Shown piece after piece: positions 21,359 through 51,225 of a stretch of 64,000 nucleotides of DNA (its first letter is position 1; every line of letters starts with the position of its first letter). Under the pieces are notes generated by a model. It saw nothing but the letters and a program-made list of their open reading frames with translations, ran no database searches and was not told the origin of the DNA. The position numbers and the translations under genes are program-made. This DNA is from Tubulanus polymorphus (Eukaryota > Animalia > Nemertea), in assembly GCF_964204645.1 (NCBI RefSeq), contig NC_134025.1:22610299-22674298 (forward strand). The letters run 5' to 3'.

Positions 21359-21392
<34 letters not shown>

Positions 21393-27300: not shown

Positions 27301-30300
27301 GCAGCTATATTGTATTTCACCTGCATGTTTATAAGTAGTAGTTCATTGCAGCGACAGGAACTAGAGTATCATTTTCATCTTTGAATTGATTCGGCAAGTT
27401 TCGAATACTGTTAGTGCGACATTTCTCATAGATTTCATTTGACAACGCAGTTGAAGGATGTTGATGCCACCCTAATTGTGATTGTGTATCGTATACTTAG
27501 CCGGCCATCGTGGTGTAAGGAAAGAAAAATTAACACTATCTTGGCCTAAATTGATTAGGTACGGGCCGCCTACCTGACAATTTCCTGTGCTTTTTTTTCT
27601 GTTCAATTAGGGCGCCGCTTATTCATAAACCGTGTGCGTAGCTCAAAGCATTGGTTTTTCATTTCCTGCCCGGTTATGAGAGATATGTCGGTGATAGTAA
27701 TTAGTTTGAATAATGCATGAGTATTAGTAGCAAAATGATTAATACTGAATCGGTTTTTGATCTCAAGATTTTCGGGTCGAATTCGAAATTTTAAAGTCTG
27801 AAAATATCGGCCATAGGCTAAAACCGTAAGAAATACGTCATTTGCCGAAATAAGCCTTAAGCTGGGGATACGCTGACTATTTTTTGTTTTATCAAAGTGA
27901 TCATTTATGAATTGTGCATTGAAAGATTTTGTCAGATTTTGTTATTTGCTCTTTTTGTTTTTGAAGTTAGACGAATGCAATATTTAACGCGATGCTTGAC
28001 CGTAAGCGAATTCTACCTTAGTAGACATTAGCCGCGATGACGCGGAGACGATTTGGCCCGGGCCAATTTGGCATGGAGCAGGCCCGAGTCAAATTTGGAA
28101 ATCGTGTTCACACATTAATCACTAACTCGATACTAAACAACACTTGAACATAGTGAAATGAGTCACTTCCGGAACCAGTTGCAATTCACATGCAATTATT
28201 TGACCCGTGCTAAAATTTGGCTCAGGCCTGGTCTGACGTTTTTGGTGGGGCCAAAATTGGGGCGTGTGTGAACAGTTGTTGCGGGGCCAAAAATGCTTGT
28301 GTGATCGCGCGGCTATTGGCATTTTTGTTGCAATATCTGTGGCAATGCACAACGACTATTTTTAGAAACGTATTTTTAAATGGAGAAACTCTGAATGGCC
28401 TATGATGTTAACTAATCTAATGAATGGAAAACTGTACATATAGACATATCTGTGTAGTGTGTGGCCAATATGCTGCCAGTGCGACAAATGTTGCCTCCAA
28501 CACTTTGGAAATTGGCAGAATTTATGGTTGGATAATAGCGGTTTTCAGGAAAATTTCAACCAGCTGTTAATATTGCGGGACAAAGCAGTTAACTAATAGC
28601 TACGCATACACCGGTGTAGGGAGATTTAATTGCGCCTTATTCCAGCCTGAATTGAATTCAATACAGGGAGTAAAACAGAACCGAGCTTCGACGTCGTCGA
28701 ATATCAGCTGCCCAGGTGAACTCACCACTTCACTACGACGACTACCATACATACACGCGCCATCCAACCTTCTAGACTCTACCGATGAAATAATGTTTAC
28801 TATTCAGTTCGTTTTTTCATAATGAACATAAATTTAGACGTTATACCACCCTCCTCTTTACTATATATATTTCGATTTAAATTTTCGCTCAATTCTTATC
28901 AAAATGAAATAGGCAGTCGATTCCCCAGTTGTTTATTGATTTTAAGAGTTAATATGTCTTATTCTCTTTCTTTCTCTGAACGTGGCCATCTATATCCATG
29001 ATCTATAGCTGCGATCACAAGAGCATTTTTGGCCGGGGAATTATGTCCGCCCAGGTCTGAGCCAAATTACGGGTCAAATTATCGAAATTGCTGCAGGTTC
29101 TGGAAGTGACTCACTTCACATTGTCGAAGCATTGTTTAGTATCGAGTGAGTAGTTTACATGTGAACGCGCTCGCTAATTGGGCTAGGGTCAAATTTAAAC
29201 TCGGGCCTGTTCCGTGCCAATTCGTCCCGAGCCACGCCGTCTCCCGTGTGATCGCGGCTTATACATGATTCTTCGAGTTTGAAATCTATTTAGAGAAGAT
29301 CCATATCAATTTGATTGTACTTATTTCTGATGTCTATGTGTGTGTGCGTGTGCGTGTTAAAATACATGTATATGAATTTAGAATTGCAATTCAATCAACC
29401 ATCGATTGAATATCGTGCTATATATATTTATATAAAGCCGCTTGTGCTTTTTGATGATGAACTGTAAATCTAATTTCCACATGTTCACCACGGTAGAGAA
29501 GATATATTCGTATTTTTGCGCTAAATTTATCGATGAACTGTCTCGTGTGTCGGCGTTCTGCCATCAAGTCGTTGTTGGGTCTTATTTTACCTGTCCTCGG
29601 TATTTGGTAACACGTCGCTCTCGCGTTCAATTTTTCTGCAGTTACCTCTGAACTAACTTCGACGGTACCTAACAACCGGTGAATTATTACTTTTAGGCTG
29701 TTTTCTTTTTATAAGTTTGGTTACGGATCCGGTTTCTAGGATAAAAAGAAATCTACTTTTATTTTTTGTTTGTTTTTTTTTAAATTATTTTCCGCGCCCC
29801 CTTTTTTGAAACATGAATATTGAAATAAAGATGAACATTTATAATTTTTCCACTGCTACATCATCTTTTGACATCACAAAAAAATGACCGTGGATTATGG
29901 TGTTCTAATGGATATATGTTAATCGGGTTCATTCAGTATATTAGTGCGACTTGCATAAATGGCGACAAAAAAAAATAATTAAAAAAGAATTTTTTCCCCT
30001 TCACAATTATTTCATGTCCATTAAATCCATAATCCAACTTGAAATAAAAAGCGGCCAAACTGTGTAGTCATCATTTTATAGCGAAATTATGTTTAGTGAC
30101 GATAACTTGCACTGAATTTTTATGGTTTTAATATTTGCAATATATGCCAGGTCAGGAGTATATATTTTCATGCTGCGTAGATGAAAATAATATGGGACTC
30201 AGATGTATGTCTCATCTTCGAAGGGGTCATTAAGAGTTTGTCATAGTAGGTTGGATCTTTTTCTCGTGATATGTAACTTTACTCTCATAAGCAAGGCAAG

Positions 30301-33300
30301 TGATAGAATCAGTTCAGATTTTGTTACTTTCAACCGCTGCTGCTGCTTCTGGCCCTGATTCGGATCATGCCATGTTTCGTACTCTGTTTTTACAGTTAGA
30401 ACATCTATGCGCATCTGCGATCAGGGATATTAGCCCTCTTTGTGCGTGGGCGGCTTGACGTTGGCTCAGCGGCTAACGTTTGATCTAATTTTAGCGTCAT
30501 GCGTCTTTTCTGAGCAGTGCAGCGTATAAATAGCGTGACATTTTAGTATTTTGCCCACAAAATAAAAAGCGAAACATGATGAAAAACACGGCACGTGTAT
30601 TTACGAAATACCGGCATTCACGGTGAAGGGCATCGGGCTGCAGAGATGCATATGGTATGAAGTGAATGATTCAACAAGTGTGTCAATAATTAAACATGCA
30701 CGCGTTATTCAAATTTGCCTTGGATTTAAAATGTTGCTCAGTGTAAGTACACTTGTGTATACAACTAAATGTATATATTGTCTTAATTATAACAAAACAA
30801 CAACTTATGATTCTTATGCCTTGACCAATCATATTACTACTAGTTCCAACGGGTAAGCAAACATTTGCTGTTATCGGGAAGACATTGATTCCTGCTTGTT
30901 CTTTAGAAATATTATGAACCTATTTCTAAGTTACGTTGGGTCTGCTGTGAATAAGATTGAAACTTTGCATTCGATGTTTTTTGAAAAAAAGTGTTTTTTT
31001 TTTATTACTTGAACAACATTGAAATAACAAGTGAATATAGATTGGCTTTCAGAATTTTAATGGGCTCGAATTTATTGGCCTACTATCCTTCTGACATTGA
31101 AGAATTTTCCTGATATTTTTGGCAAGTTAGGATTTCGAAAAACGAGTGAGGAGACTTGCGATAAACGAATCTGACGATGAACGAAAGATATTCTACACGA
31201 AAGTGTTCTTCAGACGCGCCTTAAAAGCGCAATAACGCGTAAGAAAATGACTCAATATTTGTAAACGTTTGAGCATAAAAGGCATCCCCCTTTCATCATC
31301 GGTTTATTTTAAGCTATGCCGTAATGGCCTAATACATTTGTACGATGATAGTTTTCAAAAAAAACTATCTCATATTCTCTCCTCTGGGCTACGTGGCATT
31401 GTTTTTACCCAATACTTGGTATCTATTGATATTTCATTTGTACCATTTTCTTCGGCAGTACGCTAAGAACTATGCATATACATGAGCGCTTCTTCGAAGA
31501 ATATTTCCATTTGATTTTCAATATGTAGGAGCTGAAAGGTGTATTTCGTTGTGCAATAGAACGTCGTTTAGAAACTGACCCCCCTGATATAGATTCCGAT
31601 ATTCAATGCGTATTTCTCATTTTCATCCCGATATTGCGTTCATGTATATTCCCCGTACTAGGCCTGCACGTATGTACGGTAAATTATTTAGTGCCTAGGA
31701 AAACATTTGAGTGTATATTTTTTTACCACCGATTTCGCAATTTTTATTGGGCAAACACCAACTCGATATGACGATGACGACGCCATTAGCATAACACCTG
31801 TTGATATCACGCATAGTTCAACCTACCCACCCCGATCGGGAACAGTCTACGCAATCCAATTGCGACAGCATGTGTGGCGCTTGTCGCTTTAGTTGATCTT
31901 TTCATTCGAACCGATGTGGCAGCACGCATTATGGGGCTGTGCGTAAACCGTACCTAGAATTGATGCGAACATTTTTCGCCGTAGTCGGCAATATTTGTTT
32001 CGAAAAGTTTTTTCGCCAGAAAAATGCGAGGGAATACGCGCGATAACGATGAGGTAGGCTTTTCGAGTGATGATGTGGCAATAGCAGATGTTTTTTTTTT
32101 AAATTTTTCAAAGCAAATGAAAGTTTTTGTCATTACCAACCATTTTCGATATCTGTATTGAATATAAAACTATAAAAGCAATGAAAAAGAAGAAATATCA
32201 TTTTTGGTATAAGTAAAAGATTTCGATAAGTGAATTTCGAAAATTGAGGAATTTCTAAAAGGAGTAGCTTTTCGATTCTATAAACGAATATATGCCATTT
32301 TTTCTGCGAATTTCCATCGATTTTCAGATGCTCTTAGAGATAGAATTCGTAAATCCGATGAAACGAAACTTATCTTTTTAGTTTTTTTTTTTTCACGAAA
32401 GCAGCGTTCGAAAGCGATGGTATGGACTTCGGCGACGTCATTTCGTCGCAGCACGAAATCAACCGGCTACGACAGGAAGTCCGGCGTTTGCAGACGGAAT
32501 CGGATCGTTGGAAGAATCTTGCGTCGTTGGAATCGCAAGTAAGTCGTAATCAGTTAAATTTATATGCCGCATTCGACTATCTTGGGAAATCTAGTTAGTA
32601 GAGCGGGCATCTGTCGCAATTAACAATGCTGCCTTCATTCTGCAATGCCGATAAACCGATGAATATTGGATTATATGTTTTGTTAAATCGGGCCCTTTTT
32701 TTCCTGTATACATGTACGTAATTTGTATGAGTAATTTTGATTTAAATAGTTGGAATTGCGACCGATAATTCTTCCCATGAATAGCCAACCACGCTTAACA
32801 ATCGTGGAAAATCGCGCATTTTGTTTAAATCATCAAAATTGCTAAGAAATACAAATGAAGCCTTTTTGAAAAATCTGTTTTCCATGCATATCATACCATG
32901 CCATTTTCTACATTGTGCAGAGTATTGAGGAAAAATGCTATAAGCAATTTTTTTAATGATTAACTTAACAGGATTGTTTGATCCTGTAATGACAGTTTGC
33001 ATATACGGGTATATTTTCATATAATGCGATTGCGCATTATCATAATCATTGGCCTATCATTGAAAGTAAAGATGAATTATGATACTGTTTTAGTTCACTT
33101 GAGTTCGTGTACATATCCCGTGACGAAAAGCGTGACGAAACACATGTTTGATTATATTTAACGGTCCAAAGTGAAAAAACGTAACCCTTGCATCCATTTC
33201 GGCTGAGACTCACGTGGTCTCGTGCAGCTGTCCATATATGTACATATACCATAATTTATGTGCTTCTATGGAATATTGACAGATATGGAATAAAAGCTAA

Positions 33301-36300
33301 CCAAGCAGGTGCAGTGGAGAGCTGCCACATCATATTCTATACAAATTAACCCTTTAGTCATTTGTCTTTGATCGCGCAGAAATCGAACCATTGTTTTTAT
33401 CGTTTGATGTTCTTTTTACGGACCTGACAGAAAAGAAAGTGAACATTCCGACAGCGCGCGCTGCTAGTACACGATGTCTTTCTGGTTTTGTAAGGAATTT
33501 CATTGATGTGCTCGGTGGATTTTCATCAAAAGAGACCATTTGACTTGACTTGATTTGACGTTATAAGGCGAAATGTGTTCAAGTTTTATCCACTAAATTT
33601 AACCAATCCCGACCATCAGTCATCCTCCCTCAGTAGGGATTCAATCCTGATGGCATCGCTAGATTCAGCCGCAGCTCAAAACCTTGCCACACTAAATCGG
33701 GTGCGCAGGTTCGCCACAACAAAACTTGTGGTGCCAATCAGATTGCCTGTTGTGTAATCGCTGAGGCAAATTTCATGGATAAACTGTAAATGGAAAGACC
33801 TAAGATAAAAAAAAACAGAATTTCTGATAGGCAAAAAATGACATCACCTAAGCTGCGCACTGGGTCTAGTGTGGCAGGGTTTCGGTACCGTGGCGAGTCT
33901 CAATGCCATCAGGTTCGAATCCCTGCCAGGGGAGAAGGATGACTATCAGTATTCAACAGATTGAATCAAACCTGATATGAAATAGTTATTTGAAAAACAG
34001 GCGTTGTATTCCTATTACAGACATACGATAACGTGCAAATTCGTGTGGGCTTCGGGTACTAGACTTGTGGGGGTGGTTTTGTAATCTGGATATGATGAAT
34101 GTTAACCTGATGCTCACATGTTTAATAAGAAGTTTGCAACTAAAGTAGCAACCGGTAAACAAAATCGTTGTAATAGCTTTTATTCAAGAAAATGATTAGA
34201 AGATTGTAATTCCCGGCAATGCCATCAACTTGTACACTGCATTCCTATTTTCTGAAGCCCAATTTTGAATAGCGATATGTCTAATTTTGGCCTAAGTAAC
34301 ATGAAAAAGCAGCACATTTTGGCAAACTTTTTTGGGCATGAGTAGCCAGCCTATTCTCTGGCTCTATGGTTCCCAACAAGTAAACCATACTTCAGCATTA
34401 CTACATAGTACTATGTATAGAAATCCATTTCTTTGTAGTGTCATAATTTCATTCTTTGTTGTCGTAATCTTTTTTTTAAAGAATAACCAGCGAGAAAATG
34501 AGAAAGGTGGTTCTAACAGTGTTTCCAGTGTGAACGATGACGGCAGATTACGGGACCAGATTAAGGTAAACTTAACCGCACTCTCGAAGACCCCATGCCC
34601 GCTCCGCTTTAGGCGGTACTTTAAATGATTATTTACATTCGGATTGGTCTTTGTTGTGAAATATGTCTTGTTAGACTTGCTATTTAAATATGCAGAGCAG
34701 ATCGGCACACAAAATGCTATAAAAGCCTTAAATATTTGCTCGCGGCTCTTGACGCGTCATTGGAAAACATGTAACTTCAAACATATTGTACAATTATGCA
34801 AGAAAATGGATAGTCTTGGGATTTTGCGAAATGATAAATCAGTCTAATAAACGATAAATGCTCTTATACGCATTGGCCGAGTATTTAGTAATCAACGCTA
34901 ATGAGTATGGATAAATATAACAACTCAATTAAGCCCAGCTATGCAACTAAATGGCTGTGTATGAATTCATTTTTTTCCAGTTTTTGTCGGATATCTACTA
35001 CAATTATACGAAGATCAAGGGCTACTTTTATCGGGGGAGCTTGATAATGTCCATAGAAAACGCATACCACTCATGAGTTATGTGGGGGCTAACCCCATCG
35101 TCCCAGAACAATCGATAGGTATATCGTAGTCGTTTCGTTTTCAGGATCTTCAACAGCGACTGAACGGTCAGATAGACGAACATCAACAGGAGCTATCAAC
35201 GCTTCAGAACGTGCACTCGCAGAAAATAGCGAATTTGAAAAAGCGCCATAAAAATGAAGTCGTCGAGTACGAAGATAAAATCGCCGAATTACACGAATTG
35301 CTCAATGGTAAGCTCAATTGTTACATTTCGCAAATGTGATTATTCGCTTACGTATAAACTACCTGTTGCTATTGATCGCTAACGTACGTACACGTTACAC
35401 GTTTTACTTGCCCTCACAAATAATTCATCGGCTCCACTTTCGTGACCGTGGCAACTTTGAGAATGTATTTTTTTCGCCCCTCTCGTGCGTCGAGAATAGG
35501 CGATCAAGTATTAATGCACAGGCGTGTAATTACCGGTGTTCGAAGGAAGAAAAGGCGTGCAAGGAAGGAAATTTGTTCTGTTCTATAGGGTAGGGTCATG
35601 CAGGAAATCAATGGTGTATGCCATTAGTGAAATTGCATTTTATTTTCGAACACACGGAAGTTTCATTCTTTGTAATTATAGCTTTTCATGAATCATAGCA
35701 ATGATATCATATTTACACACTACAAACCCGGACGGTTTTTGTATTATTCATAGATTCGCGTAGACAATGATTTTCAACGATGTATATTTCCTGCTTGCGT
35801 TACCGAAATTAATTTTCATGAACTAATTCTAGCTGGGCGTGCGATTGAATCGCGTGTAATACGATATAATGATTCCGTTTTTTCATGGCGTTTTCGCTGT
35901 CGACAGATGACGATGCGAGCAACGTGGGTGAAGACGACGGCGGTACACGTTCGAAACTGGTGCACGAGTTGCAGAAACTGCGAGACGAAAACAAGGCGTT
36001 TCTGGCGAAAATTGATGACTCGAACGACGACCTTCGAGGAGCGAGAGATCAGCTGCGGAATGCGATTGAAGAAAACGAGGCGACGCAGACGCAATTGAAA
36101 GAAAAGGAAAACAACTGCAAACAGCTGGAAGATGAGTTGAATGTCTGTAAACGGTCGATCGAAGAGCATCAACAGATGCGCGCGGAGCAAACGGTTCAAT
36201 TGGAAAAGTGTCGAGAACGACTTGACATCATCTCGTCGAAATTACGCGACAACGAACTGGAGTGGAACGCGGAAAAACATCTGTTGACCGATAACCTTAA

Positions 36301-39300
36301 ACGAACGCAGGAATCATCTGAGCAACTCGCGCGCGACATCGAACTAGTCATTAAACAGAAAGAAGAACTTCACTCGCAACTACGACTGCAGCAAGATAAG
36401 TCGGGCGAACAAGACATCTCGACTAATCAGCTTAAGTGTCAATTGGATCTTTCCGAGTCTGAGAATACGAAGGTGCGCATGCATTCAAAGAATCTATTTA
36501 TTACGTTGTTGTTAATCTATTCAAATATTGTTGCCATAAAATTCGCTCTTGAGTGCATTACTTAACGAATTCATGCTAAGCCCGTGAAACATGTGTGGAT
36601 GTATTAATCTACTATTTTTGTTCGATTAATATCCTTGCCTTCAGTTGGTGTCGCAGAATGCTGACCTTCACGCCGAAATTCATCGCTTGCAGGAAGAGGA
36701 AGAACAGTTGATACAGAGTAATCAATGCCTCGAATCTGAACTTCAAACTCTCAACGACCAACGAGAAACTTGGACGAACCACGCGTTAGAAATTGAACTA
36801 TTGAAGCAAACTATATCAGGTAAAGATGAAAAGATAATCTAAGATCTTACACTCAGAATACAGTCATTCGGTGCAATTTCGGTGAAAGCCGAGCTGATGA
36901 ATATGATTATAGATGAATATCATCATAGATGATTACATTTATATCTTAATTTCGATTGTTCACATCATGAAGACAGGTATAGGCCAACATATGTCACCTC
37001 CCCGTGGTATTCTGCGTTATACAGTTAGTCCGCCGCCTCCAAAAGTATGACTCATCGTTATCAAGATGGCTGACTGACTACGCAACACCTGGTACATGTG
37101 ATCGTATTTAAATTGTTCAATACAATATACATATGAGCACATTACTTTTACTATATGCAAATTCAACAGCTGTGCCTTAGATTAAAATTTATCTAGAGGT
37201 TTGTGCTGACTGCGTAGCACATTGAAAAAACCCCTTACTATTAGATGCATAGAATCATCAATGAATACAGAATTTTGTACGTCCAAATTTAATGTTGCGT
37301 GATTACGTAGGTGTTCCAGTGATGCTATAGAAATGACAAGAGTTCTTGGGACTGAATTAGATCAAACAAAAAGATGAAAACTAATTTTTTGGGCCTAGTA
37401 ATTCATTCTAATTGCCAGTAAATATAATACTTTATTCAAAATGAATTTCAATAGATCAAAATTCACATTCGGTGTGCTTCAATTATAGAATTCTAGTATT
37501 TTTACTTTTGGAAAAGTCTCTCCACAATCAACCGATTGAGAGTCATGATAGTTGACATGAATTTTCCAAATTTAGTAAATTAGTATGCGACGTACTGCAG
37601 TGGTCTGCACACAGGTGTTTGGATTAAGTGGTTGCAGCTGTACCGATATACATGTAGACTGTACATGTTGCTATTGAAGTGTCCCATTCTCATTGGCTGC
37701 CACGATTCGCGATATATTTGCTACTAGGCAAAACTGTCATAGACGCCTGACTGTTACGGAAATATAGATTTCCCATTTGAAATATATTTTTAGATCCGAT
37801 GCTTCATTCTATATGTATTATAGACATATTTATTTCATTGCATGTTCAACATATCTTTTTTTTTCTCAACTGCCTATAGTAAATAAGTGTAGGAGTTATA
37901 GATTATTTACAGTCTAGGTGAATCAATATCCAATTTGCCGCAGAAATTCAATTTAGATTTTAAAAAGATATTTCAATAAAGTACACATTTTTTCTAATCG
38001 ATCGATCTAAGGAACCAAATACTTTCAGTCGTAGACCTGAATTATCTGACTACTGTCGATGTTTGACATTACCTTATCTGATGGTACATTATGTTCAGTG
38101 CTCATTCTCTTTTTGTTTTATCCCAAATATAAGAGAACCTCTTTAAAATCACTGCCATTCATTGGCGTAGCCAGTATTCGAAATCCGCGTTGCGCTAACG
38201 ATGACTTATATGAATTTCGGTCTTGATTTTTCAGAAAACGAGGCGACTATTGGAGAATTGGAAGCATCTTTACAACAGGTGGGCGACGAATTGACAGAAA
38301 CACGTGTCAGACTCTTGACTGAATTGGATGCAAATCATGTATATACACCTGAGTTATATTCATATCTGTTTACACACGAGCTACCACTTACTACACACCG
38401 CTGCCCCATTCAAATGCCTGGCTTTATAAACTCTTTTGTGGATAAATTCTTATTTATTTACACACAGCAAACTTTCAGCAAAATTTTCATAGTTTTTAGA
38501 ATCTGCTTAGTCGGTTTTAAGCATTGACAATGCACTAATACGTTATTATTCATGTTTACTCTGCATTATTTCTATCAAAAGCAGATGAACCTTCATATCT
38601 AGAGCTTATCAGACTTAAGTTGAAATGAAATCAGGTATTTTTTGCTGATTGATATCGGTTTCTTCAATCATGAGCTTCTGTGATTTTGAGTTGCATTGTT
38701 TTCAGTTTCATAGCGATTACTGCATACAATTACTGCACAAGCCTGTGACTGCATCGCTTGAACTACTGTCACACTTTCTGGTCAACAGCCTCCATGTATT
38801 GACCGTGGTTTGTTCCCTATGTAATTAATCAGATTTTTTAAAGGAAAATTTATATTGGATCATACATTTGTATCAATCGAGCACATGTCAACCTATTATT
38901 ATTAAATCAATCTCTTTTGATCATAAGCGAATTGATTATCCCTAAATTCACGAAATGATTTATCGGGTTATAAAGAATCGTCAATGACAAGCTCGAGTTC
39001 AAAGCGAATATTGCCTAGAGTTTTAAGTTTTATGGCATTACAATTGACAAAAGACTGTCTGCTATATAAACGGTTTGATGCACGCGGTCTATGCCCTGTG
39101 GAAATTTTTCGAATCGTTCTATTTAGATGTGGTTTCCATGGTGTATCTCTGTGAAATCTCATTCTGTGACAAAATGTACATACTATTTTGAATGAATATA
39201 TCATGTGTATATATTATATATAACATGAAATCGAAATCGAAGAGATTTTAAATGGGGGTATATATTTCAGCCTTGCACAGGCGTTTCATGAATTGCATCC

Positions 39301-42300
39301 ATGAAAGTATGAGTACGAAATATTCTATTCAAATTTATTGCTCCAATGTCAATCATAGCTTCACATACTCCTCCCTGGTTTTGGTACTAATGCCGAGTAC
39401 ATAATTGTAGTCTCGCGTGCTGCTTTACTAATTAATAACAGTCAAAATTACTTGCGTTTCAATCATTTAGATTCTCACTTTGTGAGAAACGCGAAAATCA
39501 GTAACATATATGTAATTAAGTCTGTAGAGATATTTTCTATTCAACATGCTGAAATGTTTAATATTTCTCAAAAAATTTACCCATCCTTATTTTACCAGAC
39601 GGATTTTATTGATATTGATGAATAGATGTAAAAAATGTTCAGAATTCATGGCGGAATTCGTGGAAATTACGGTGTTTCATGAATTAATAATGTTTTACAG
39701 TCTGTTGCGTCGAGCACTTTGAAAGACATACAAGATGTTAAAGACCGCTTGGAAACGGACATGCTACAGCAACGCTCGCAAATTGCCCAGGAGAAATCTG
39801 AAATTATCAATCAACTCTGTGACCTAGATGAGCAGGTAAAAATGATTTAATCATTTTCTGGTTCAGTTTAATTCCTGGTCAAAAAGCTGGGGATATGTAA
39901 TAGGCAGTAGTGCGCTGATCATGGCTTTTTCTGTAAAACTCTAATAGTTACCACTTGAACACTACTACAGCGATTTAACTACTAGTAATACCTGCTCAGA
40001 TGAAGTTTTGACCAATTTTTGGATGGATAGGAATTTTTTACATTGAATTTGTCGCCTGAAGCTCGCAACATTGACTTTTTGTATTTGATGCGCAGAAAAC
40101 TGGACAGAAATTCCAAATCGAAGCATTAGACGCAGAGAAACAGTTAGTTTTAGATGAAACGGCGCAGTTGGTTGAAGGTATCGGAAATGCCGGTATGCAG
40201 GACGTCACGCAAAATCTCATATCAAATTTGGAAAATGAAAACACTTTGCTCAAGGATCGAGTGTCGGATTTGGAAAAAGTTTTGGCCGAATTCCAAGGAG
40301 ATAAAACCCGATCAGGTGAATTTGATATTTGATTTCGAACTCGAGAAATAAATCACGCGAGGAGTGTTCATTGCGTTTATATAAGTCCTTAAATGTTTGA
40401 AATAAATCAATGATCCCTCATTCATTGTTGAAGCGGAAAGAAAGATCTAATTACTTACATAATTTGATTTCTTTCAGATTCTAATCTCACTGTCTCGGGC
40501 TTCATTGATGAAAATATTGAACAACAAAGGTAATCATCCGAATGAATGTCATTGAGTCGGGATAGACAGTTTTAACTTAAACACTGAGGTTTACCTAAAT
40601 AGTGACTTCAGTTGCGATGGCAAAAGCATTTTTGGCCCAACCAAAAATGTGTGACCAGACCTGAGCCAACTTTTAGCACGGGTCAAACTATTGCGTATGA
40701 ATTTTAATTGGTTCTGAGGGATTCTCACTAAGCTTTGTCACAGCATCATTTTGTATTGAATCAGTGGTTTACATGTGGATACGCTCCGGGCCAAATCAGC
40801 TTTAATCCCTGGGTTAAAGTTAAAATTGTTGCCCGTTGTTCTACAGCCTTGTTGGAAGTCAATAGCTCGGAAACTAGACATTTCAGGTTTAGTTTCTAGG
40901 TCTGACAGCTTTTGGACTGGATGAGAAAGAGTTAAAAAGTTTAGAATGCGTAACCAGGAATATACTGATCATGTATTTCTCGATTCATGTTTTGCGTTTC
41001 TTTATTATTTAAGTGAATTTATGAGTACTCCCATTGGAAAGGGCAACTTGCCACTGCCGCTGCCACCTTCAAGCGACAATGATTCCTCCAACGGTCAGTC
41101 ATCGGTTGTTTCCGAACATTCATCGGATATTCGCGGCAACCATTCACTTGACGGACATGTGCGAGTTCTTGAGAACCAAGTGGAGAAATACGAACAAGAA
41201 ATTGAACATTTCGAAATGGTGCGTTGCGACTGGCACAGCGAGAAACAAGCGTTGGAAAACGTGTTGAAGCAATTGCAAAATAAAATTCGCGAAAAACAGG
41301 AATCTCTCTCTGTCGCTCAAGCGGAAAAGGTGAGCTCTACAGGAATATATCAGTGTATCATATGATAATTGTTGTAACTGCATCTAATAGCAATATCCAT
41401 AATACCTCATAAACCTTAACTACCCTTAAAAGTTTTTCTAAGATAGTTTTTAAACAAGCAAAAAGATATTACTTTTCCTTTCCTCTAATTCACTAAATCT
41501 GTCTTCGATTGTTCTCAATGATTTTAATTAGGAGCTGTACATTTCAATTACTGCTTTTTAATGCTAATGCTTCAAAAAAGTTTATTGCGTTGATGATTTA
41601 TGAAATTTTGGCATCTGATTACAATTTCGCACAATGTATTTGTTCTGTGTAGGGTCTTGTCACGGTAGAAAGTAAAGCGAAAGAGAGGAGGGGCCGCAAA
41701 AGAACGGGCTCCAAGCCGCAAGACGATTTGGTACGGTTCGCACCTTGTTTTCACTTTCTTAGATATGTCTATGAAAAATATCTCATTATAAGTTTTATTT
41801 CTATCTACTACGCATGAAAGAAAGTGAAAAATCTAAATATTTTTGTGGAATAAAGTAAAATTAGTTTGTTATGCCAATTATAAAAGGTCATGGTTATTTT
41901 TGGCATGAGCTCCTCAGGAAATTGAGTTACCTTGACAGACGGTATATTTAGATGTTTACTTAAGTTTGTGCGTATGATTTCAACATAAAAATGCTACTTT
42001 ACTACTGATTTAGACGCATTAGAAACGTAAAAATAGTTTTGTCTTCGCGATTTTGAAGTCCATTACCATAGTAACACAAAATAAATTTAGAGTTTAATTG
42101 AATGGTGCGTACGTATTCTTATTACTTGACTCTCTTCAAATAAAAAAAAAGAAGGTGACGATTGTGACAATTGCACGTGTAAAATAATAACAATTCAATC
42201 AATCAAACTTTACATTTCTTCCTTTCGAAAAGTGAAAATACATAAAGGTTTTCTTTGCTTTCTGTCGCTAATGTCTTTGTATGTGTTAAGCAACAATTTT

Positions 42301-45300
42301 AATGAATTTTAACAATTTTTCTTTCTTTCGTTGCTTTTGCTGAACTAATTAATGCATGTTAGAATGTGTATGTCATCGTATAAGTCATTTTAACCGAGGT
42401 TTATTATATGTATATCGATTGATTGTTGAGCACGTTGCATGTCTGCTTTTTACAGAATCTATCGGACTTAGATCAAGATTTGGAGCCCGTTGTTGATGCC
42501 AGCGATGGCTTCAGCGATTTCAGCTCGGAAATAGATGAGTTGTATCAGCAAATCCAATTACTAACCGATTCGAATGCCCTGCTTGAAAATGAGCGTGATA
42601 TACTTTCCTCAGAAAAGGTTCGATACAATTTTTGCATTTTCATATACATGTATCATAGAATATTCTAATCATGAAGAGTTCTGAAGTTATTGCATCTTAT
42701 TGCATGTCACTTAAGGATATAACCAACCGCAATAGACATACTAAAAGAAAGCATTAAAGATTTCTTTATTTATTGATAATTCATCGTACAGATTTATATC
42801 GAATAAGTGTGTCATGTATTTTTAGGAGTTACTATTGAAAGAAATGCAAGATTTGAGAAGAAGTAATGATAACTTGAAAGCTTCATTAGCTGATAAAGGT
42901 AAATAGATAATACCTATTTGATACAAATGAATTGTGAATGAGCGTTTATGGAAAAATGTTTCCGGTAGAAATTGCGATACCTACTCATTTTCAATTTCTC
43001 AATTTCAGATCCGCTGGATGAACTGCAAAAAGAAATCGATGACCTCAGCCAAAAACTTCACGACAAGGAAGCTACTGTCAATGAATTGACTAGTGAAAGG
43101 GATGGGCTAATGTTGAGTTTAGAAGAATTGGACACACAACATCAAACAGTCATCGACAAATTACTGGAAACGAGGGACAGTCTTTTGAAAAACAACGAAA
43201 ATCTGTCCCAGCAGGTTGTGTTTCTCGAGGAGCAAACTGAAAAATGTGAACGGCGCATCAACGATCTTAAACGCGAATGTAACTCATTGCGTTCGGAACG
43301 AGAAGTTCTGCAGAAAGATTTACACCAAGCACAAACTGAAATCGAATCATGTCATCAGGAAATATCCATTATCGGCAAAGATAAAGACGAACAGTGGCAG
43401 CTGTTGAAGGATCGTAACTCTGACCTGCAGCAGCAGATATTAAACTTGAATGACGATGTAACGCGTGCAAAGAAAGATAAAGAAACTTTGAAATTGCAGC
43501 TTGATGATACAAATAAACTCGAAACGGAAGATCGGCAAAAAATTGATTCTCTAGTCGATAAATATACCTCGCTCAAGTCAGACAGGGATGATCTCATTAA
43601 GGAACTGACCTCGATGAAGGAAGAAAATGATGTCTTGAAATCGGAGTGCGCAAAGCTGAATATTGAAATTCGTAACAAAAACGATGCTTATGACAGTTTA
43701 GAGATGATAAAGAATGATCTTGAAATCAGCGTTTCTGTCCTCGAAGATGAGGTTACTCAGGCGCGAAGCAGACAAGAAGATTTGGAGATGGAAAATATGC
43801 AATTGCAGTCAAGTATGCAAACGTCGTCTGCTGATAGCACATCAACGAAAAATACATCCGCAGATTTTGAGTCTCAGGTACGGAGTTTAAAACTCGAATT
43901 AGATAGGAGCTTAACCGATAACGCTGAGTATGAAACCAGAATCAATGAGCTCGAAACGAGCATTTCCAGTTTAAGCAGCCAGAATGAAAAACTGAATGAG
44001 GCACTGAATAATATGGCAGATTTGCGCAAAGAGGAGTGTTCAGTTGATTACACAAAGCAAATTAGTGAATTGAAAATGATCATTGATGCCCTGAAATCTG
44101 AGAAGATGACGTTAGAAGGCGATGTATTTAAAGCAGAACAGAAGGTGTCCGATACCACAAAGCATTTTGAAAATTATATACAGGAGATGAAAGAAATCCG
44201 CCAACTCGATACGAGTTCATTGGAAGGGGAGGTTGATCGTTGGATGAATTTACACCATGAGAAAGAACTTGCAATTAGTGAATTAGAGGGTAGAAATGAT
44301 CAATTAGAATCAGATTTAGCAGACAGCAAAGAGCTGTTGCAGTCGACAATAGATGGACAACAACCATTGACCGATCTTTTGAATGAAAGAGAGTTGGAGA
44401 TAACAGAACTTAAAAAGGATAATGGGAAACTTATCGCAGATCTGGAACAGAAGGCAGAGAGAATGGAATTGCTGATGAGTGAAGCAACAGCCAGCAAAGA
44501 TCTCGGTAAACAAATCATCAACTTGAAAGAGGAAAATTCGAAACTACAGCAACATCTAAATGAATTGTTATCAGAACAGGACTGTGAAAAACTTGATGCT
44601 AAGACACTGGATATTATAACCGATTTAGAAAGTGAAATAACGAAGTTGAATTCTAAACTAGTAGATAAAAACAACGAATTGCAAAAATCAACTGAGTTAG
44701 TGAATGATTTGCAGTCTGATTTGTTGACTCTTGATGAACAGAAGGAGGAATCTACAGGCCAGATCACTAAGTTACAGAATCAAATTGCTCAACTGCAAGA
44801 AAATCTTATTCAAAAAGATGAGGAACTCGATAACATTAGTATTGAATTAACGAAATACCAGAAGTCTGCGGTCTCATCGCGTGAATCCATATCATCTGAA
44901 AATGGTGTTATCTGTGATAATGATATTAACACTGAAGCTGTTTGCAATGGAGATCTTGATGATGATGATGATGATGATATACATCTTTCTAAACATGATA
45001 ATTCGTCTCTGCAAAAGATAATAGCTGACCGTGATGAAATCATTGCCGAATTGAAAAACAATAATTCATCGTTGTTGCGAATGCTAGAAGATAAATCTCT
45101 ATCACACGGGAACAAATCATTGCTCGAAATTCATAAACTGAATGAACAAGTGAGACTCTTACAGATGGAGAAGGAGCAGATGATGTCTGTCATGACGGAA
45201 AAGTCTAGAGAAGCTAGTAAACTGAAAGGTGAAGTTCATCGTTTGATGAATGTTGTGTCAGCGGAGAAGGTCGCGATCGAGAAATTGCAAAAAGACAACA

Positions 45301-48300
45301 ACGAAATCATGAATCGTTCAAATCCAAATGAAGACATGCAAAAAGAAACGGTGAAGAAACTCGCCCAGATAATCCGTGATAAAGATTTAGAGATCGAATC
45401 GTTAGCGCAGAAAAATGACACACTGTTACAAGTGCTGCAGGAAAGTGGCGAAAATAAAGACGGTGCCAGAATCAACGATTTGATACTCGAGCGGGAAAAT
45501 CTGTCAAAACAGTTGGCACTGTATCAGCAGGACCGGGAACAAATTATAGCAGCGTTGAACCAGAAACACCAGGAGAGTTTGGGATATCACGCCGAGGTGC
45601 AGAGGTTGTCTAATGTCATATCAGCGGATTCAGAGAAACATGATAAACTCGAACAGGATTATGCGAACTTAAAACTTCAATACGAAGATAAGCAACAAAC
45701 ATTGCTCAAAGCTCAAAACGAGCTGATAAACTATAAACAGAAATATTCAGAACTCGAAACTCGATTCAAAGAGTTAGTGTCTAGTCAGGATGGTCAAAGC
45801 GTCGATATTCGATTATTCGATGAAAAATGTGGTGAAATCAATGAATTAAGTCAGTGTCTCAAGTCGAAGGATATTGTGATCTCAGAGAAGGATGATGTAA
45901 TCATGGAAAAGGACAAGGTTGTCTCCGAACTCAGTAAAAAGATTGAGACTGTTGAGTTGAAGGTGAAAAATAAGGAGAATGAGATCCACTCGTTAAAAAA
46001 ACAAATAGAAAAACTGAATTTTGAGTTGAAAGAGCTGGAAATAAAGTTAGTAGATTCTAATAAGGAAATCGAACACACTCAAAAAAGATCTAATAGTCAA
46101 ACGTCGGAGGTCTCTGCTTTAAAAGAAAGTCATAATAAATTAACAATGTTGCTGCAAGAGAAAGAATTCGAAATTCAGGCTTACAAAGAAAAGCAGATGA
46201 CTTTAACTCAGTTGTTTGAAGAGAAGGGCGAACGTCATGGCAACAAGGAGGACATAGAACAATGGATGAAATCAAATGAAATTTTGCAGGAACAAGCGAA
46301 AACATTCCAACTTGAACGGGACCAAATGAGTTTAAGCCTTCAGCAGAAGCACGCTGAACTTATTGAACTTCAAAATAAGGTTAGTCAAATGATTGCGAAT
46401 TGATTTTCAATGTTGTCATAATGTATCTAGTACGATATAATTTTATATGTGGGTTTAAATGATTGGAAAAAGAACTCTTATCATAAAACCTTCGATTTGC
46501 TATTGAATATTGACCTGAAATCTGTAGATTTCTTGAAGCTTTGCTGAATTAACTCTATAACATGTTTTTGAATACTATTTCAAGATGAGCTTTAAGAAGG
46601 GGTTTTTATCATTACAGGCACAATTCCATGTCGAACGAGAGCAAAAGTTAACAAAGGAATTGGACAGGTTGCGCACCCACCTAATACAGGTATGCAAAAT
46701 AGTAATTAATTGAATATACGATATGAAATGTAAAATATGTTTCAAGCAAAAATTGATTTAAATTTTAGAAATTGAGGTCGCCGTAATTTGAAATTTTGCT
46801 CTATTTGTTAATTCACCGGAGACGAATTGATATATGGAGCAAAAGTTTATCCATGGTGATACAAACACAATGCGCTATTTCTGGAATGGATATTACAATG
46901 AGCCTTTTTTTCTGATAGATTGAAGAGGGATACACCCAGGAAGCCTTAGAATCTGAGGAGCGAGAAAAGGAACTGCGCAATAAACTAGCGATGGCTGAGG
47001 ATCGAGCGCAATCGTCGTCGTCAGCGATCCAGTCGGCCAATCAACACGCTTCAGAACAGGTCGACGGTCTGCAGCAACAGCTACATCTAGTTATTGAACA
47101 ACGAGATACCGCGTTGCACCATCTTGCTCAGCGAGAAGAGCATCTAAAACAGTACGCCGCTTCACTCGCTAATCTGCAAATGGTTTTGGAGCAGTTCCAA
47201 ATAGGTGAGTGCATTCATTGTTCTTGCATTGAATTAGTTGTCAAACTGTATTACAGGTACAGTATAAGGTGAAGGTCACATTGAAGTTGGCTGAAGTGAT
47301 AAATTTAGATTCGAATTGATAGAAATGTCAATTTATCATTGCTCGGTGGTAATAACGTTACAAGCAGACATAACCGTGGGTGGGAATCTACAGATACCAG
47401 TCGCGTGCCATTTTATCACAAATATGAAACATCTTCTTCTTTTCAGAAAAAGACGATCAACTGGCTGCTGAAGTTGAGAAACATCAGCGCGAAATTGCTG
47501 CCAACATTAAGGATAATAGATGTTTACAAGAACGTATAGTTTCACTTGAAGTACGTTACCTGATTTTATATTAAGTTAGTAGCTTATCGCACATAACCTA
47601 ATGTGAAACCGCTATGAATCAGTTTTTCATTTTCATAACAATAATTTCCATTCGTATTTATCTTGAATTATGTATCGCAAACAGACTTAAATGCAATGAT
47701 TCTGATAGGGGTATTTGCGAATGAGTACAAAAGATAATGAAAGATATCAACTTCCTCTTCATCATTATGTTTTTGTATGTAAGTTTTGCCATCATTATTC
47801 GTAGGACGAAGTCAGAGATGCACAAGATGCATTGGAGGCTGCTTCCCGTATTAGCGAACAACTTGATAGAAAAGAAGAAATCATCGGTGCCTTGAAAGAA
47901 GAAGGTAAATTTATGCTTTTCTGCGTATGCTTTTGTGCCTGTCATCTAGCCAAATTAACATTTACTCGCTTAGTATCTTGAACTATTTTAAAATCCTAAT
48001 AAGACTAACAGTTACAGAAAAACTAATGATTTAACTCAGATATTTGATTTGAAGGGAATATTTTATGTCAAATCCATAATAACAGTATTTTTATTGGCTT
48101 AAGAAAATACTTGAGTTACAAACTTTGAATATAGTGTGTTTCACATGTACAGGGAAATTTCTGGTCTGGTAGGACTAACTTTTGTATGAAGTACTTAACT
48201 GCTTTGTGCGTACGCGGGGACATGTACTTGGCAGTTTGGATTGTTCAGATATGAACTGTGGATGCGTGGATGCGACTAACCTTACCAATGTTAGTTTAAT

Positions 48301-50669
48301 CTCAGCTGGTAATTCGGAGTGATCGTCGAACTCGCAATTGCCCGCCGAGGTTTCATTAATGTCGGCTTCTAACAACATTAATTCGTAGCGCTGATAATAT
48401 ACATATTTATTCTGCATATCATTTAACCGCTTAGAAATATATTATATTCGTACTCGGCAAGTTTCTGCTCACACTGAGAGTGAGCTCGGATACGCGTTCA
48501 GGATATTGATGAGGATGCTGTTCTATCTATTATGTGTGTTCTGTTGCTTTGTGTGACTGCTATTCGCCCATGTGGCTTGTAGTTATTAGCTGCCAATAGT
48601 TGTGTAATCTCAGCTGGTAATATTGAGTAGAAAACGCACATGTCTGCTCAGGTTACTGGTTGGGATTCTACAAATGTTGGCTTTCCCAGCATGCACAATA
48701 ACACGATGCACTACTTTACTACTTAGACAAAAAGCTTGCTCAAAACTAATAACAATGATCACGTTGTTCGAGGGACTGTTTCTTCGCGCGACGTGGATGT
48801 GAATTCGAGCGCCGCTGATTTGAGGATGGGACGATGTTCCCACGCTGTGAGTATTACATCAGGTACTGATACCACTTCTCAGTACCTTTTGTGATATTCA
48901 TAGTATGGTGAGCAATTAACAGCATGATGATGGCGAATATGCATGGATTTGACGAATTTAATTGAAGTTATATTCGAAATCGTTTTTGTTCTTTTTTCAT
49001 TCACACGAGTGTTGATATTTATATTATTCGACTTCCTTTCTTTGCTCTGTGCTGCTCAGAGCAGCTTTCAATATGCCCATCTTTAATAACTGTCATACTC
49101 TTTCAAATTGCAGTTCAACTTCGAGAAGCTGCTGCTAAACAGGCTGAAGAAGAAATACGAAAGCTGAGTTCGAATTCAGAAGCCAAGGTTGATAAGTAAG
49201 TTGAAATGTTATCGTTTTGAAAGACCAGATTCACATTTGTGAAAATATGAATTATCTGAGCATGGTTGTAGACATTTTATAGACTGGTATCAACTTAAAC
49301 CTGAGGGGATTAACTCAAATGAAACTGAATTAAGTTAACCCCCAGGTTAAAGTTATTGCCAGTCTATGAAACTTGACTCTGAAGACCGATAAGCTAAGAA
49401 TTGGCCCATTTATCTGATCCATTTCAAAGTTTTTGGCCCTGTGAATCTTCATGTCATTTGATTCTCATTCTTTTCAGGACAGTCATAAAGAATCTCTTCA
49501 TGGGATATTTCCACACTCCGCAAAATAAACGTCAAGAAGTTCTCAGACTGATTGGCAGTATCCTTGATTTTACTCATGATGATATGCAGCAGGTATGGAA
49601 ACACATTCATATTGAATTGATATGTTAATGTAGTTAAGTCGGTTGTGGGTGCAATTTTGGACAGTGCTGCCCTTGTTTTCTTGACTCTATATTGAAATTC
49701 ACAACCCTGGTCTAAATGATATATCCTTTTTTATCTTAACAGTTACATTGTTAAGTCTAGTAATTTGATTAGTATGCTTTCTTCGGAGTTCTAAAGCGCT
49801 TATGATATTAATATCTTTCGCATTTTATATTAGATTGGAGCTGAATCAGGTGGTGGCTGGTTACCAAGTTGGATGCGTCGTTCACCTGCACCTAGTCCTG
49901 TAACGCCTATCCGGACGACTCAACGAACCAACAGGTCTCTAGATCATGTAAGTGTTATCTGTAATAAGCGTTGGATCGAGCGACCCTTCAAAAGTTATAC
50001 GTGTACTTCAGAATTATTGCCAAATCATGAATGTGTAACTGTAAATTATTATGAACATTCACCCAGATTGCAGCATATGGCATAGCCGAATTTAACCAAT
50101 TTATTCTGCTTATCCAACAATTTACCTTACCCATTAAAATTCATAGAATTTATTTGTGCTAAACATGCTGTGTGCCATCATGGAGATTCATGTTGGGTTT
50201 ACTAACATGGTAAATATGATATATGATGATATTTGATATATATATTCAATATATATAGATATAATGTTTCGTTTTGCAGTCATTCTCAGAAATGTTCATC
50301 AAGTTTCTTGAAAATGAATCAACTCCGAAACAAAATATTCGCCTTCCCGCCGAGGAAATGGCAAAAGACGTACAAAGAATGCACCAGAAACACCATCGCG
50401 AATCGCATTCTGTGTCTCAGTTACCTCAGCATAAGCACCAACAGCCGGCATTCAATCCATTCTCCGCTCCACGCCACGCGGCCATGCCGATTCAAATCGG
50501 TATGAATTCGTCAACCTCTCACGATTCTCACATATTAATCAATGCCGAAACGCCGTCGTTTTCGATGACGCCGCTCGCACCGGCGGCCGACAACATTCCG
50601 GGCTCGGGTCATTCTCATGCGGCTACGTCGAGCAGTCATATACTAAAAGACGTGCTACAGAAGCAATGA
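17853..50669 (+). CDS. TRIP11: Golgin GMAP-210 / thyroid receptor-interacting protein 11 (cis-Golgi coiled-coil tether), about 2435 aa
   Basis: Exons: 17853-17946, 21149-21225, 22133-22243, 25626-25755, 32405-32538, 34482-34565, 35145-35307, 35907-36472, 36645-36819, 38235-38338, 39701-39835, 40096-40315, 40478-40529, 41014-41329, 41653-41730 (less certain), 42456-42617, 42826-42898, 43009-46379, 46618-46689, 46919-47204, 47447-47550, 47805-47904, 49114-49195, 49478-49592, 49834-49947, 50280-50669. They join in frame (7308 nt). Motifs: N-terminal MSWLSGGISSLTDQISNFTKEVLTEGTEEV, MDFGDVISSQHEINRL, long coiled coil, GRAB domain [35 protein letters not shown], GA1 motif SFSEMFIKFLENES, C-terminal ILKDVLQKQ. 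Confidence 0.93.
20243..20363. mobile_element. Short palindromic MITE
   Basis: CCAGTTGCTCAAA..TTTGAGCAACTGG. Comparable 90-120 bp palindromic elements occur at about 4667-4772 and 49275-49371. Confidence 0.6.
20587..21001. mobile_element. Non-autonomous DNA transposon with CAGGG/CCCTG ends and 5-bp TSD (family F, copy 1)
   Basis: AATGC|CAGGGTC..GACCCTG|AATGC; reverse-complement similarity to 54074-54414. Confidence 0.75.
26133..26508. repeat. Minisatellite, 4 x 94 bp
   Basis: Near-identical units (CGGATCAGCACTGTACTTTCATTTAACGTACG..TAATGATTACGAT) starting at 26133, 26227, 26321 and 26415. Confidence 0.95.
28030..28314. mobile_element. MITE family A, copy 3
   Basis: AGCCGCGATG..GATCGCGCGGCT, flanked by ATT/ATT. 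Confidence 0.8.
29007..29259. mobile_element. MITE family A, copy 4
   Basis: AGCTGCGATCAC..GTGATCGCGGCT, flanked by TAT/TAT; opposite orientation to copy 3, about 700 bp away. Confidence 0.8.
33618..33944. mobile_element. MITE family C, copy 2
   Basis: AGTCATCCTCCCTCAGTAGGGATTCAATCCTGATGGCAT..ATGCCATCAGGTTCGAATCCCTGCCAGGGGAGAAGGATGACT; shares internal GCTGAGGCAAATTTC with copy 1. Confidence 0.75.
40610..40795. mobile_element. MITE family A, degenerate fragment
   Basis: AGTTGCGATG..AGCATTTTTGGCCC..CTGAGCCAACTTTTAGCACGGGTCAA matches the left part of copy 4. Confidence 0.6.
43009..46379 (+). CDS. TRIP11: Giant 3371-nt coiled-coil exon of TRIP11/GMAP-210
   Basis: Lies inside ORF 42972-46403; acceptor aatttcag at 43001-43008, donor AAG|gttagt at 46379. 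Heptad-rich E/K/L/Q sequence with TRIP11-like segments IIRDKDLEIESLAQKNDTLLQVLQ and ALNQKHQESLGYHAEVQRL. Confidence 0.92.
48285..48365 (+). ncRNA. mir-216: microRNA precursor, miR-216 family (first copy)
   Basis: 5p arm TAATCTCAGCTGGTAATTCGGAG at 48297-48319 has the miR-216 seed AAUCUCA. It pairs with CTCGCAATTGCCCGCCGAGGTTT (48331-48353); basal stem CCAATGTTAGT/ATTAATGTCGG. Sense to the host TRIP11 intron 47905-49113. Confidence 0.9.
48592..48681 (+). ncRNA. mir-216: microRNA precursor, miR-216 family (second copy)
   Basis: 5p arm TAATCTCAGCTGGTAATATTGAG at 48605-48627 pairs with CTCAGGTTACTGGTTGGGATT (48647-48667); basal stem GCCAATAGTTGTG/TACAAATGTTGGC. Confidence 0.9.
48836..48913 (+). 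ncRNA. mir-12: microRNA precursor mir-12
   Basis: 5p arm TGAGTATTACATCAGGTACTGA at 48848-48869 matches mature miR-12 as I recall it. Star arm AGTACCTTTTGTGATATTCATA at 48881-48902; basal stem GTTCCCACGCTG/TAGTATGGTGAGC; CNNC (CAGC) at 48920-48923. Confidence 0.93.
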
Positions 50670-51225
50670 CGCTAGTTCACCGCACTGGTAGTTTTCAAAG
50701 AAAATAATCGTCGTTCTCATATCATTTAAAAAGACCACAATTCGAATATCATCAATAGTTGTACTTTTGTCACTTGCATTTTGGGCCTGGCTCACGAATT
50801 ACCGGTTAAGTTATTAACGTAAGCACTGATGATTTGTAAATATGGTGCAAAAAAGCAACGGCCAGTATGTGGTGGACCAGTGGTGTGTGATAGCTAAATG
50901 GTAGATTTCCCATAGTTTTAGACGTAAAGCTTGAAATGATGATCTACCTCTGGGTACAGAGTCTAGTTGTATTAATGTGGTTAATCTGCTTGCCATAATC
51001 AAAATTACATAAAATGGGTTTCGAATGGGGGTTATGTTCGTTTGCTTGTTTTTGATAAATTCTTGGATGTTTTGTCTTGGTTTGTTTTACAATGCAATTT
51101 TGGGCGAGATTTCTTCAATGTCTTAAAAGGTTGAAGCTATTGAATATATTATTGTAAATTCAAATATATATATATATAAAATCTATTTATTGCTGTAAAT
51201 TTGTACATAACGTGTTATATCAAAT

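What the first reader, a model, noticed from the sequence alone, without database searches (positions are those of the whole stretch)
48285..48913. Intronic mir-216 / mir-216 / mir-12 cluster inside TRIP11 (GMAP-210), invisible to the ORF track
Seen: three sense-strand hairpins within 630 bp of the 1.2-kb intron 47905-49113, just before the GRAB-domain exons, with 5p arms TAATCTCAGCTGGTAATTCGGAG, TAATCTCAGCTGGTAATATTGAG and TGAGTATTACATCAGGTACTGA. Known: in Drosophila mir-283, mir-304 (both miR-216 family) and mir-12 form a cluster in an intron of Gmap, the TRIP11 orthologue. Inference: the same order (216, 216, 12) in the same host gene in an apparent spiralian suggests the cluster-host linkage dates to the protostome ancestor, coupling these miRNAs to transcription of a Golgi tether.
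Basis: partly seen in the sequence, partly recalled or inferred. Interest (0 to 1): 0.85.

Follow-up and report, generated by a model that had tools for sequence, protein, structure and literature searches.

The report
Ancient microRNA trio inside TRIP11 intron
Three microRNA-like hairpins (two miR-216, one miR-12) lie in one intron of the Golgi-tether gene TRIP11 of a likely annelid worm, where they are likely cut out of the host transcript; this arrangement is already published for molluscs and arthropods, and the only fresh lead is that miR-12 may be the same gene as chordate miR-217.

Summary
Rfam models of mir-216, mir-216 and mir-12 match the three hairpins on the sense strand, they fold far better than shuffles, and spliced contigs skip intron 47905-49113 of a TRIP11 gene. 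The evolutionary inference is right but already published: PMC11848845 lists mir-216 and mir-12 inside trip11 in oyster, limpet, fly and tick, and mir-216/217 inside trip11 in amphioxus, hagfish and lamprey. I add that the host intron is the same phase-1 intron in 11 of 11 metagenome loci whose upstream exon was found, that two lineages seem to keep mir-12 elsewhere, and that this animal lacks the mir-283-type seed. Remaining lead: mir-12 and chordate mir-217 share 16 of 19 arm letters and the same last slot in trip11, so they may be one seed-shifted gene; my searches did not find this in print. No small-RNA reads were available.

The parts
48285..48363 (+). mir-216-family hairpin 1; predicted precursor 48297-48355, 5p arm 48297-48319 (seed AAUCUCA)
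   Evidence: Rfam RF00654 E 1.5e-5; z -3.8; geometry; covered without other letters by a contig of run X4
48373..48376 (+). CNNC motif 18 nt behind predicted 3p end of hairpin 1
48592..48681 (+). mir-216-family hairpin 2; predicted precursor 48605-48670, 5p arm 48605-48627 (same seed AAUCUCA)
   Evidence: Rfam RF00654 E 8.3e-8; z -7.9
48687..48690 (+). CNNC motif 17 nt behind predicted 3p end of hairpin 2
48835..48914 (+). mir-12 hairpin; predicted precursor 48848-48902, 5p arm 48848-48869 (seed GAGUAUU)
   Evidence: Rfam RF00751 E 2.6e-7; z -8.4; 5p arm identical to the sequenced Platynereis Mir-12 5p (supplement of PMC12257675)
48920..48923 (+). CNNC motif 18 nt behind predicted 3p end of the mir-12 hairpin
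47905..49113 (+). host intron, GT..AG, phase 1, 1209 nt
   Evidence: exon chain; skipped by a spliced contig of run X2
47805..47904 (+). TRIP11 exon before the cluster (ends ...LKEE plus one base)
49114..49195 (+). 82-nt TRIP11 exon after the cluster (ends ...KVD, phase 2)
49478..49592 (+). TRIP11 exon with the GRAB/GRIP-like Golgi-targeting domain
   Evidence: Pfam PF01465 E 4.8e-6, PF10375 E 1.4e-5
17868..51150 (+). TRIP11 (GMAP-210) host gene as far as mapped; stop codon at 50667-50669, transcript contigs end near 51150; true 5' end not determined
   Evidence: tblastn of named TRIP11 proteins; homolog searches; contigs

Best explanation
This is the conserved protostome mir-216/mir-216/mir-12 cluster in the sense strand of a TRIP11 intron of a likely annelid, and its three hairpins are likely cropped from the TRIP11 pre-mRNA by Drosha/DGCR8 and diced into 5p microRNAs. 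Shown: hairpin sequences and folds, family matches, host identity, the spliced intron, and the same intron position in other protostomes. Inferred from established microRNA biology: the hairpins lie 384 nt and about 200 nt from the splice sites, so they are canonical intronic precursors, not mirtrons; the CNNC motifs would aid cropping; the products would silence mRNAs through two seeds (AAUCUCA from both mir-216 copies, GAGUAUU from mir-12, perhaps also mir-12-3p as in Platynereis). The host likely supplies transcription rather than a Golgi-related function: the cluster stayed put for the whole protostome history but survives without the host in some lineages.
For: Rfam matches and folding. 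Splicing of 8 of 8 modelled introns in contigs of run X2, and of 7 of 8 in X3, another study, which ends loosely at the host intron's acceptor with the upstream exon's letters. CNNC starts at +16..+19 in 46 of 65 distinct hairpins of the cluster, against 87 of 325 control windows; all 3 in the window have it. In 18 aligned mir-12 hairpins 4 of 19 pairs show two-sided changes that keep pairing. 20 of 47 metagenome loci with the mir-12 arm show TRIP11 exons by profile, all on the same strand and in the window's order; L009 adds one by motif. 11 of 11 loci with the upstream exon found have the donor one base after the same Glu codon. Published: trip11 host in oyster, limpet, fly, tick; mature and star reads for the Platynereis orthologues (Mir-216-P1 19,576/53; P2 157,818/2,972; Mir-12 4,961 5p and 5,383 3p).
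Against: No small-RNA reads from this organism, so 5' ends, star strands and expression are untested. All three Rfam scores are below gathering. Hairpin 1 is the weakest and refolds differently in a 141-nt context. 26 of 47 loci show no TRIP11 exon: 9 are short or share the hairpin of a positive locus, but 17 do not fit (L033, L047 and a 15-locus group). The loci are not independent: the 21 positives collapse to about 13 groups by hairpin. The annelid placement has SH-aLRT 83 only, from a quick tree without brachiopod, nemertean or phoronid rows. An internal promoter was not excluded.
Confidence: 0.92

Rival explanations
1. The microRNAs are genuine but come mainly from their own promoter inside TRIP11, so the intronic place is historical and they are not coupled to the host.
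For: Fly mir-283 does not correlate with mir-304 (r 0.04) or mir-12 (r 0.02) (passages of PMC3150300; that paper reads it as post-transcriptional). Fly cluster fold change -1.1 against -0.3 for Gmap (table in PMC4043116). The cluster works without the host in jawed vertebrates.
Against: Sense orientation in 21 of 21 host-positive loci and in all published trip11 rows seen. Nothing here shows an internal start; contigs cannot show starts.
Confidence: 0.2
2. One or more hairpins, most likely hairpin 1, are decaying and no longer processed in this species.
For: Lowest score and stability; alternative fold in longer context; same seed as hairpin 2, so redundant; copy number varies from 0 (L020) to 3 (L025, L043).
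Against: Seed and positions 1-16 intact; the arm differs by one letter from the first copy in L024, L025, L043; lower stem and CNNC at +18 kept.
Confidence: 0.07
3. The shared location with fly Gmap is coincidence.
For: 17 of 47 mir-12 loci lie away from detectable TRIP11 exons.
Against: Same gene, strand, order, intron and phase in annelid-like, mollusc-like and arthropod-like loci and published rows for 4 protostomes and 5 chordates.
Confidence: 0.01

Closest known systems
Oyster and limpet Mir-216/Mir-216/Mir-12 in trip11 (Dataset S1 of PMC11848845, rows seen)
   Same: Three members, same order, sense strand, mir-12 about 2.1 and 2.6 kb from the host's 3' end (window about 2.3 kb).
   Different: Spans 1.4 and 3.6 kb against 0.63 kb here; that dataset gives no intron position and no annelid locus row for Mir-12.
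Drosophila mir-283/mir-304/mir-12 in Gmap
   Same: Two MIR-216 members then mir-12, sense, near the 3' end of the trip11 orthologue.
   Different: Arthropod-like and most other loci carry one copy with the mir-283-type seed AAUAUCA; the window has none. The fly intron itself could not be fetched.
Platynereis and Capitella '12_216' cluster (supplements of PMC12257675)
   Same: Annelid cluster with mir-12 last; Platynereis Mir-12 5p equals the window's 22 letters; read support published.
   Different: Capitella has three mir-216 copies, Platynereis two with different seeds; trip11 is not named in those 5 supplementary files.
Chordate mir-216/mir-217 cluster, in trip11 in amphioxus, hagfish and lamprey, outside trip11 in jawed vertebrates
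   Same: Host gene, strand, mir-216 first and a different family last; the last member shares 16 of 19 arm letters with mir-12.
   Different: Filed as a separate family of chordate origin with another seed; intron identity in chordates untested.

Membership tests
MIR-216 family (Rfam RF00654, clan CL00094) | Conserved 5p arm with family seed on a hairpin | tested here: met
   positions 1-16 equal Platynereis Mir-216-P1
MIR-216 family (Rfam RF00654, clan CL00094) | Score at Rfam gathering threshold (53.5 bits) | tested here: not met
   38 and 46.4 bits. A curation cut-off, not a biological trait: in 20 loci scanned only 7 mir-216/283 matches reached it
MIR-12 family (Rfam RF00751) | Conserved 5p arm on a hairpin with compensatory changes | tested here: met
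   identical to sequenced Platynereis Mir-12 5p
MIR-12 family (Rfam RF00751) | Score at Rfam gathering threshold (55 bits) | tested here: not met
   42.5 bits; none of 20 loci with the exact 21-nt arm reached it either, so the model is too narrow
Canonical animal microRNA gene | Precursor of about 55-70 nt with 16 or more duplex pairs, a lower stem and a CNNC motif | tested here: met
   predicted 59, 66, 55 nt; CNNC at +18, +17, +18
Canonical animal microRNA gene | Mature and star reads, homogeneous 5' ends, 2-nt 3' overhangs | not testable with these tools
   only assembled contigs were offered
Mirtron | Hairpin ends coincide with a splice site | tested here: not met
   nearest hairpin ends lie about 380 nt from the donor and 200 nt from the acceptor
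TRIP11/GMAP-210 golgin (host) | Long coiled coil with C-terminal GRAB domain; best hits TRIP11 | tested here: met
MIR-217 family (Rfam RF00673), for the mir-12 hairpin | MIR-217 seed and model score | tested here: not met
   22.2 bits of 70, E 0.071; two changes fall in the stretch that would be the mir-217 seed (mature start recalled)
MIR-217 family (Rfam RF00673), for the mir-12 hairpin | Common descent: arm identity plus same slot in the same intron | tested here: inconclusive

The most novel reading that the evidence does not exclude
Protostome mir-12 and chordate mir-217 are one ancestral gene whose processing register slid by 3-4 nt, giving a new seed. The whole '216 then 12/217' cluster would then sit in this TRIP11 intron since the bilaterian ancestor, instead of two families arising separately in the same slot as catalogued (PMC11848845 Table 2; separate clusters in the PMC12257675 table). 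For: 16 of 19 identical letters on the same arm, matching 3' arm, one two-sided change that keeps a pair, 2 of 100,000 shuffles against 219 for mir-305, same last slot and host in 4 protostomes and 5 chordates, and no species listed with both. Against: mir-577, mir-960 and mir-305 models outscore mir-217; a 3-4 nt shift is large; only the Rfam consensus was compared; sea urchin and hemichordate names gave no Mir-216 rows and PMC11521371 says ambulacrarians lack MIR-216, so no intermediate is at hand.
Probability: 0.55. Interest if true: 0.5.

Novelty: new member of a known kind. Interest (0 to 1): 0.25.

Why it matters
The mir-12/mir-217 lead would matter to people who use microRNA families as gained-once characters: it would merge a 'protostome' and a 'chordate' family into one bilaterian gene, give the pancreas-associated vertebrate mir-216/217 cluster (association as stated in PMC2728532) a full invertebrate counterpart, and settle the origin of a cluster that PMC4238352 calls ambiguous. 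It can be tested quickly with public amphioxus and lamprey genomes.

Tried and rejected
No whole genome is held for this window, so copies elsewhere in this genome were not checked. No RNA holder was listed as such; runs X2 and X3 nevertheless gave spliced contigs; X1 may be the source of the window and X2 = X4 are one sample. Rfam gathering scans miss the cluster. A fourth hairpin in the intron: none. Further microRNAs in the window: only weak or repeat-like matches. A richer TRIP11 profile on the 27 loci without profile hits found nothing better than E 1.6, with reversed-sequence controls from E 18. Self-targeting: no 7-mer site for either seed in the host 3' UTR, one 6-mer at 51106; not pursued. 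Minus-strand reading rejected by scores and folding. The primary Platynereis expression paper was not held under the id I tried; a secondary source says ciliated cells (PMC4156656) while I recall gut, so tissue expression is left open. L012 and L031 were dropped from the tree for too few columns, and the careful tree search did not finish. Searches for a mir-12/mir-217 link in print gave listings without such a claim; most listed papers were seen as listing only.

Full report
Observation. The three arms stand at 48297, 48605 and 48848 on the + strand as quoted. Rfam matches them to mir-216, mir-216 and mir-12 with E 1.5e-5, 8.3e-8 and 2.6e-7, each better on + than on - and each below its gathering score. 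They fold as single hairpins with z -3.8, -7.9 and -8.4; 0 of 200 shuffles fold as well. Of 38 sliding windows over the intron only these three fall below z -3. Predicted precursors are 59, 66 and 55 nt, each followed by CNNC at +17 or +18; that this is a Microprocessor motif is established knowledge, recalled.

Host gene. An open GT..AG exon chain runs from the 3.4-kb coiled-coil exon to a stop at 50669. Exon 49478-49592 matches GRIP/GRAB. The best named hits are TRIP11 of abalones at 66-67%, and named TRIP11 proteins map from 17868 to 50660. One contig of run X2 skips all 8 modelled introns, the 1209-nt host intron among them; X3, from another study, shows 7 of the 8 joints and a loose end at the host intron's acceptor. 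In a quick tree of 35 rows the window groups with Capitella and Ridgeia at SH-aLRT 83, apart from molluscs (98); no brachiopod, nemertean or phoronid row was named, so 'likely annelid' is the limit.

Other animals. A scan of metagenome contigs for the 21-nt mir-12 arm gave 47 loci. A TRIP11 profile found same-strand exons in the window's order in 20 of 47, and a motif scan added L009. These 21 fall into about 13 groups by hairpin, so they are not 21 independent cases. In 11 of 11 loci with the upstream exon found, the donor follows one base after the same Glu codon (10 as in the window, L020 with another base); 9 of these also show the matching acceptor on the same contig. The tree puts L027 with molluscs and L024, L025, L043 with annelids; L004 and L013 carry Rfam mir-283 matches and fall outside both groups, which fits arthropods. 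The remaining 26: 9 are short or repeat a positive hairpin (L001, L002, L005, L010, L015, L018, L034, L037, L042). L033 and L047 lie in gene-dense DNA beside an opposite-strand homeobox gene, with no TRIP11 exon in 10 kb upstream (L047) or 8.5 kb downstream (L033). A group of 15 related loci shows no mir-216 and no TRIP11 exon, with reach up to 10 kb upstream (L008) and 10 kb downstream (L035), most members far shorter; in 3 of them a glutaredoxin/Cys-rich gene ends 1.2 kb downstream on the other strand. These look like relocations or host-less duplicates, but a very long intron is not excluded for the second group. CNNC sits at +16..+19 in 46 of 65 distinct hairpins against 87 of 325 control windows. 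18 of the 48 mir-12 hairpins, picked for diversity, were aligned; 4 of 19 pairs show two-sided changes.

Mechanism. Shown: sequence, structure, host, splicing, conserved position. Inferred: Drosha/DGCR8 crops the three hairpins from the TRIP11 pre-mRNA, Dicer cuts them, and the 5p arms guide silencing through two seeds. In Platynereis the orthologues have mature and star reads, and Mir-12 gives both arms about equally (supplement rows). The host most likely lends transcription; nothing here ties the microRNAs to Golgi function. Fly data show uneven coupling within the cluster, and jawed vertebrates keep the cluster without the host.

What is known. PMC11848845 (abstract, first part of section 7, passages and supplement rows seen) lists 216~trip11 at Bilateria, 12~trip11 at Protostomia and 217~trip11 at Chordata, with loci in oyster, limpet, fly, tick, three amphioxus species, hagfish and lamprey. 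PMC3763532 (table passage) dates 283/304/12 to protostomes. PMC4238352 (passages) calls its origin ambiguous and compares mir-12 with mir-496, not mir-217. PMC12257675 (section 14 and supplement rows) tabulates a '12_216' cluster across protostomes and, separately, '216_217' in chordates. Passages only: PMC4043116, PMC3150300, PMC2486268, PMC1388199, PMC12553114, PMC4156656, PMC11521371, PMC2728532 and bioRxiv 10.1101/2024.12.01.626237. The shared intron and phase is a detail I did not see in the parts of these papers that I read.

Remaining lead. The Rfam mir-217 consensus aligns to positions 5-23 of the mir-12 arm with 16 of 19 identities, the 3' arms also match, and one pair changes on both sides and stays paired. 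Shuffled motifs reach that in 2 of 100,000 trials; mir-305, the look-alike control, has 14 identities and 219 of 100,000. In the published coordinates the last member of the trip11 cluster is mir-12 in the protostomes and mir-217 in the chordates, and the family lists share no species. Against: three unrelated models outscore mir-217 on this hairpin, the shift would be 3-4 nt (mir-217 start recalled), no real chordate sequence or intron was examined, and ambulacrarians lack MIR-216. Six literature searches did not show the idea; MirGeneDB itself and subscription papers were not searchable.

Verdict. Real, canonical, and a new instance of a published arrangement. Interest 0.25. The mir-12/mir-217 reading has probability about 0.55 and would deserve about 0.5.

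Noticed in passing
window 48297-48319 and 48605-48627: Both mir-216 copies carry the seed AAUCUCA. All 12 distinct loci with two or more mir-216-type arms have at least one mir-283-type seed (AAUAUCA), as does Platynereis. This animal seems to have lost or converted that copy; no remnant hairpin lies between the two.
   Followed up: partly
L020 (mir-12 at 1544): mir-12 sits alone in a roughly 520-nt version of the host intron; no mir-216 found.
   Followed up: partly
L025, L043: Three mir-216 copies before mir-12, like Capitella's four-member cluster.
   Followed up: partly
L033 (8459-8538) and L047 (9995-10070): mir-12 without mir-216 or TRIP11, about 250-300 nt from an opposite-strand homeodomain exon in gene-dense DNA.
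   Followed up: partly
L008, L030, L035 and 12 related loci: mir-12 convergent with a glutaredoxin/Cys-rich (GRXCR-like, name recalled) gene in 3 of 15 loci; no TRIP11 or mir-216 seen; L040 has two mir-12 arms 427 nt apart.
   Followed up: partly
window 49275-49371: Short inverted repeat (33-nt arms, 82% complementary) in the next intron, hit by many unrelated contigs: a dispersed MITE-like element.
   Followed up: no
window 57648-58197: Long inverted repeat, 251-nt arms, 96% complementary, 48-nt spacer; gives a sub-threshold Rfam MIR2670 match; likely a foldback element.
   Followed up: no
window 54875-55468 (-) and 61862-62350 (+): Exons of a leucine-rich-repeat protein and of a GDSL lipase downstream of TRIP11.
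   Followed up: no
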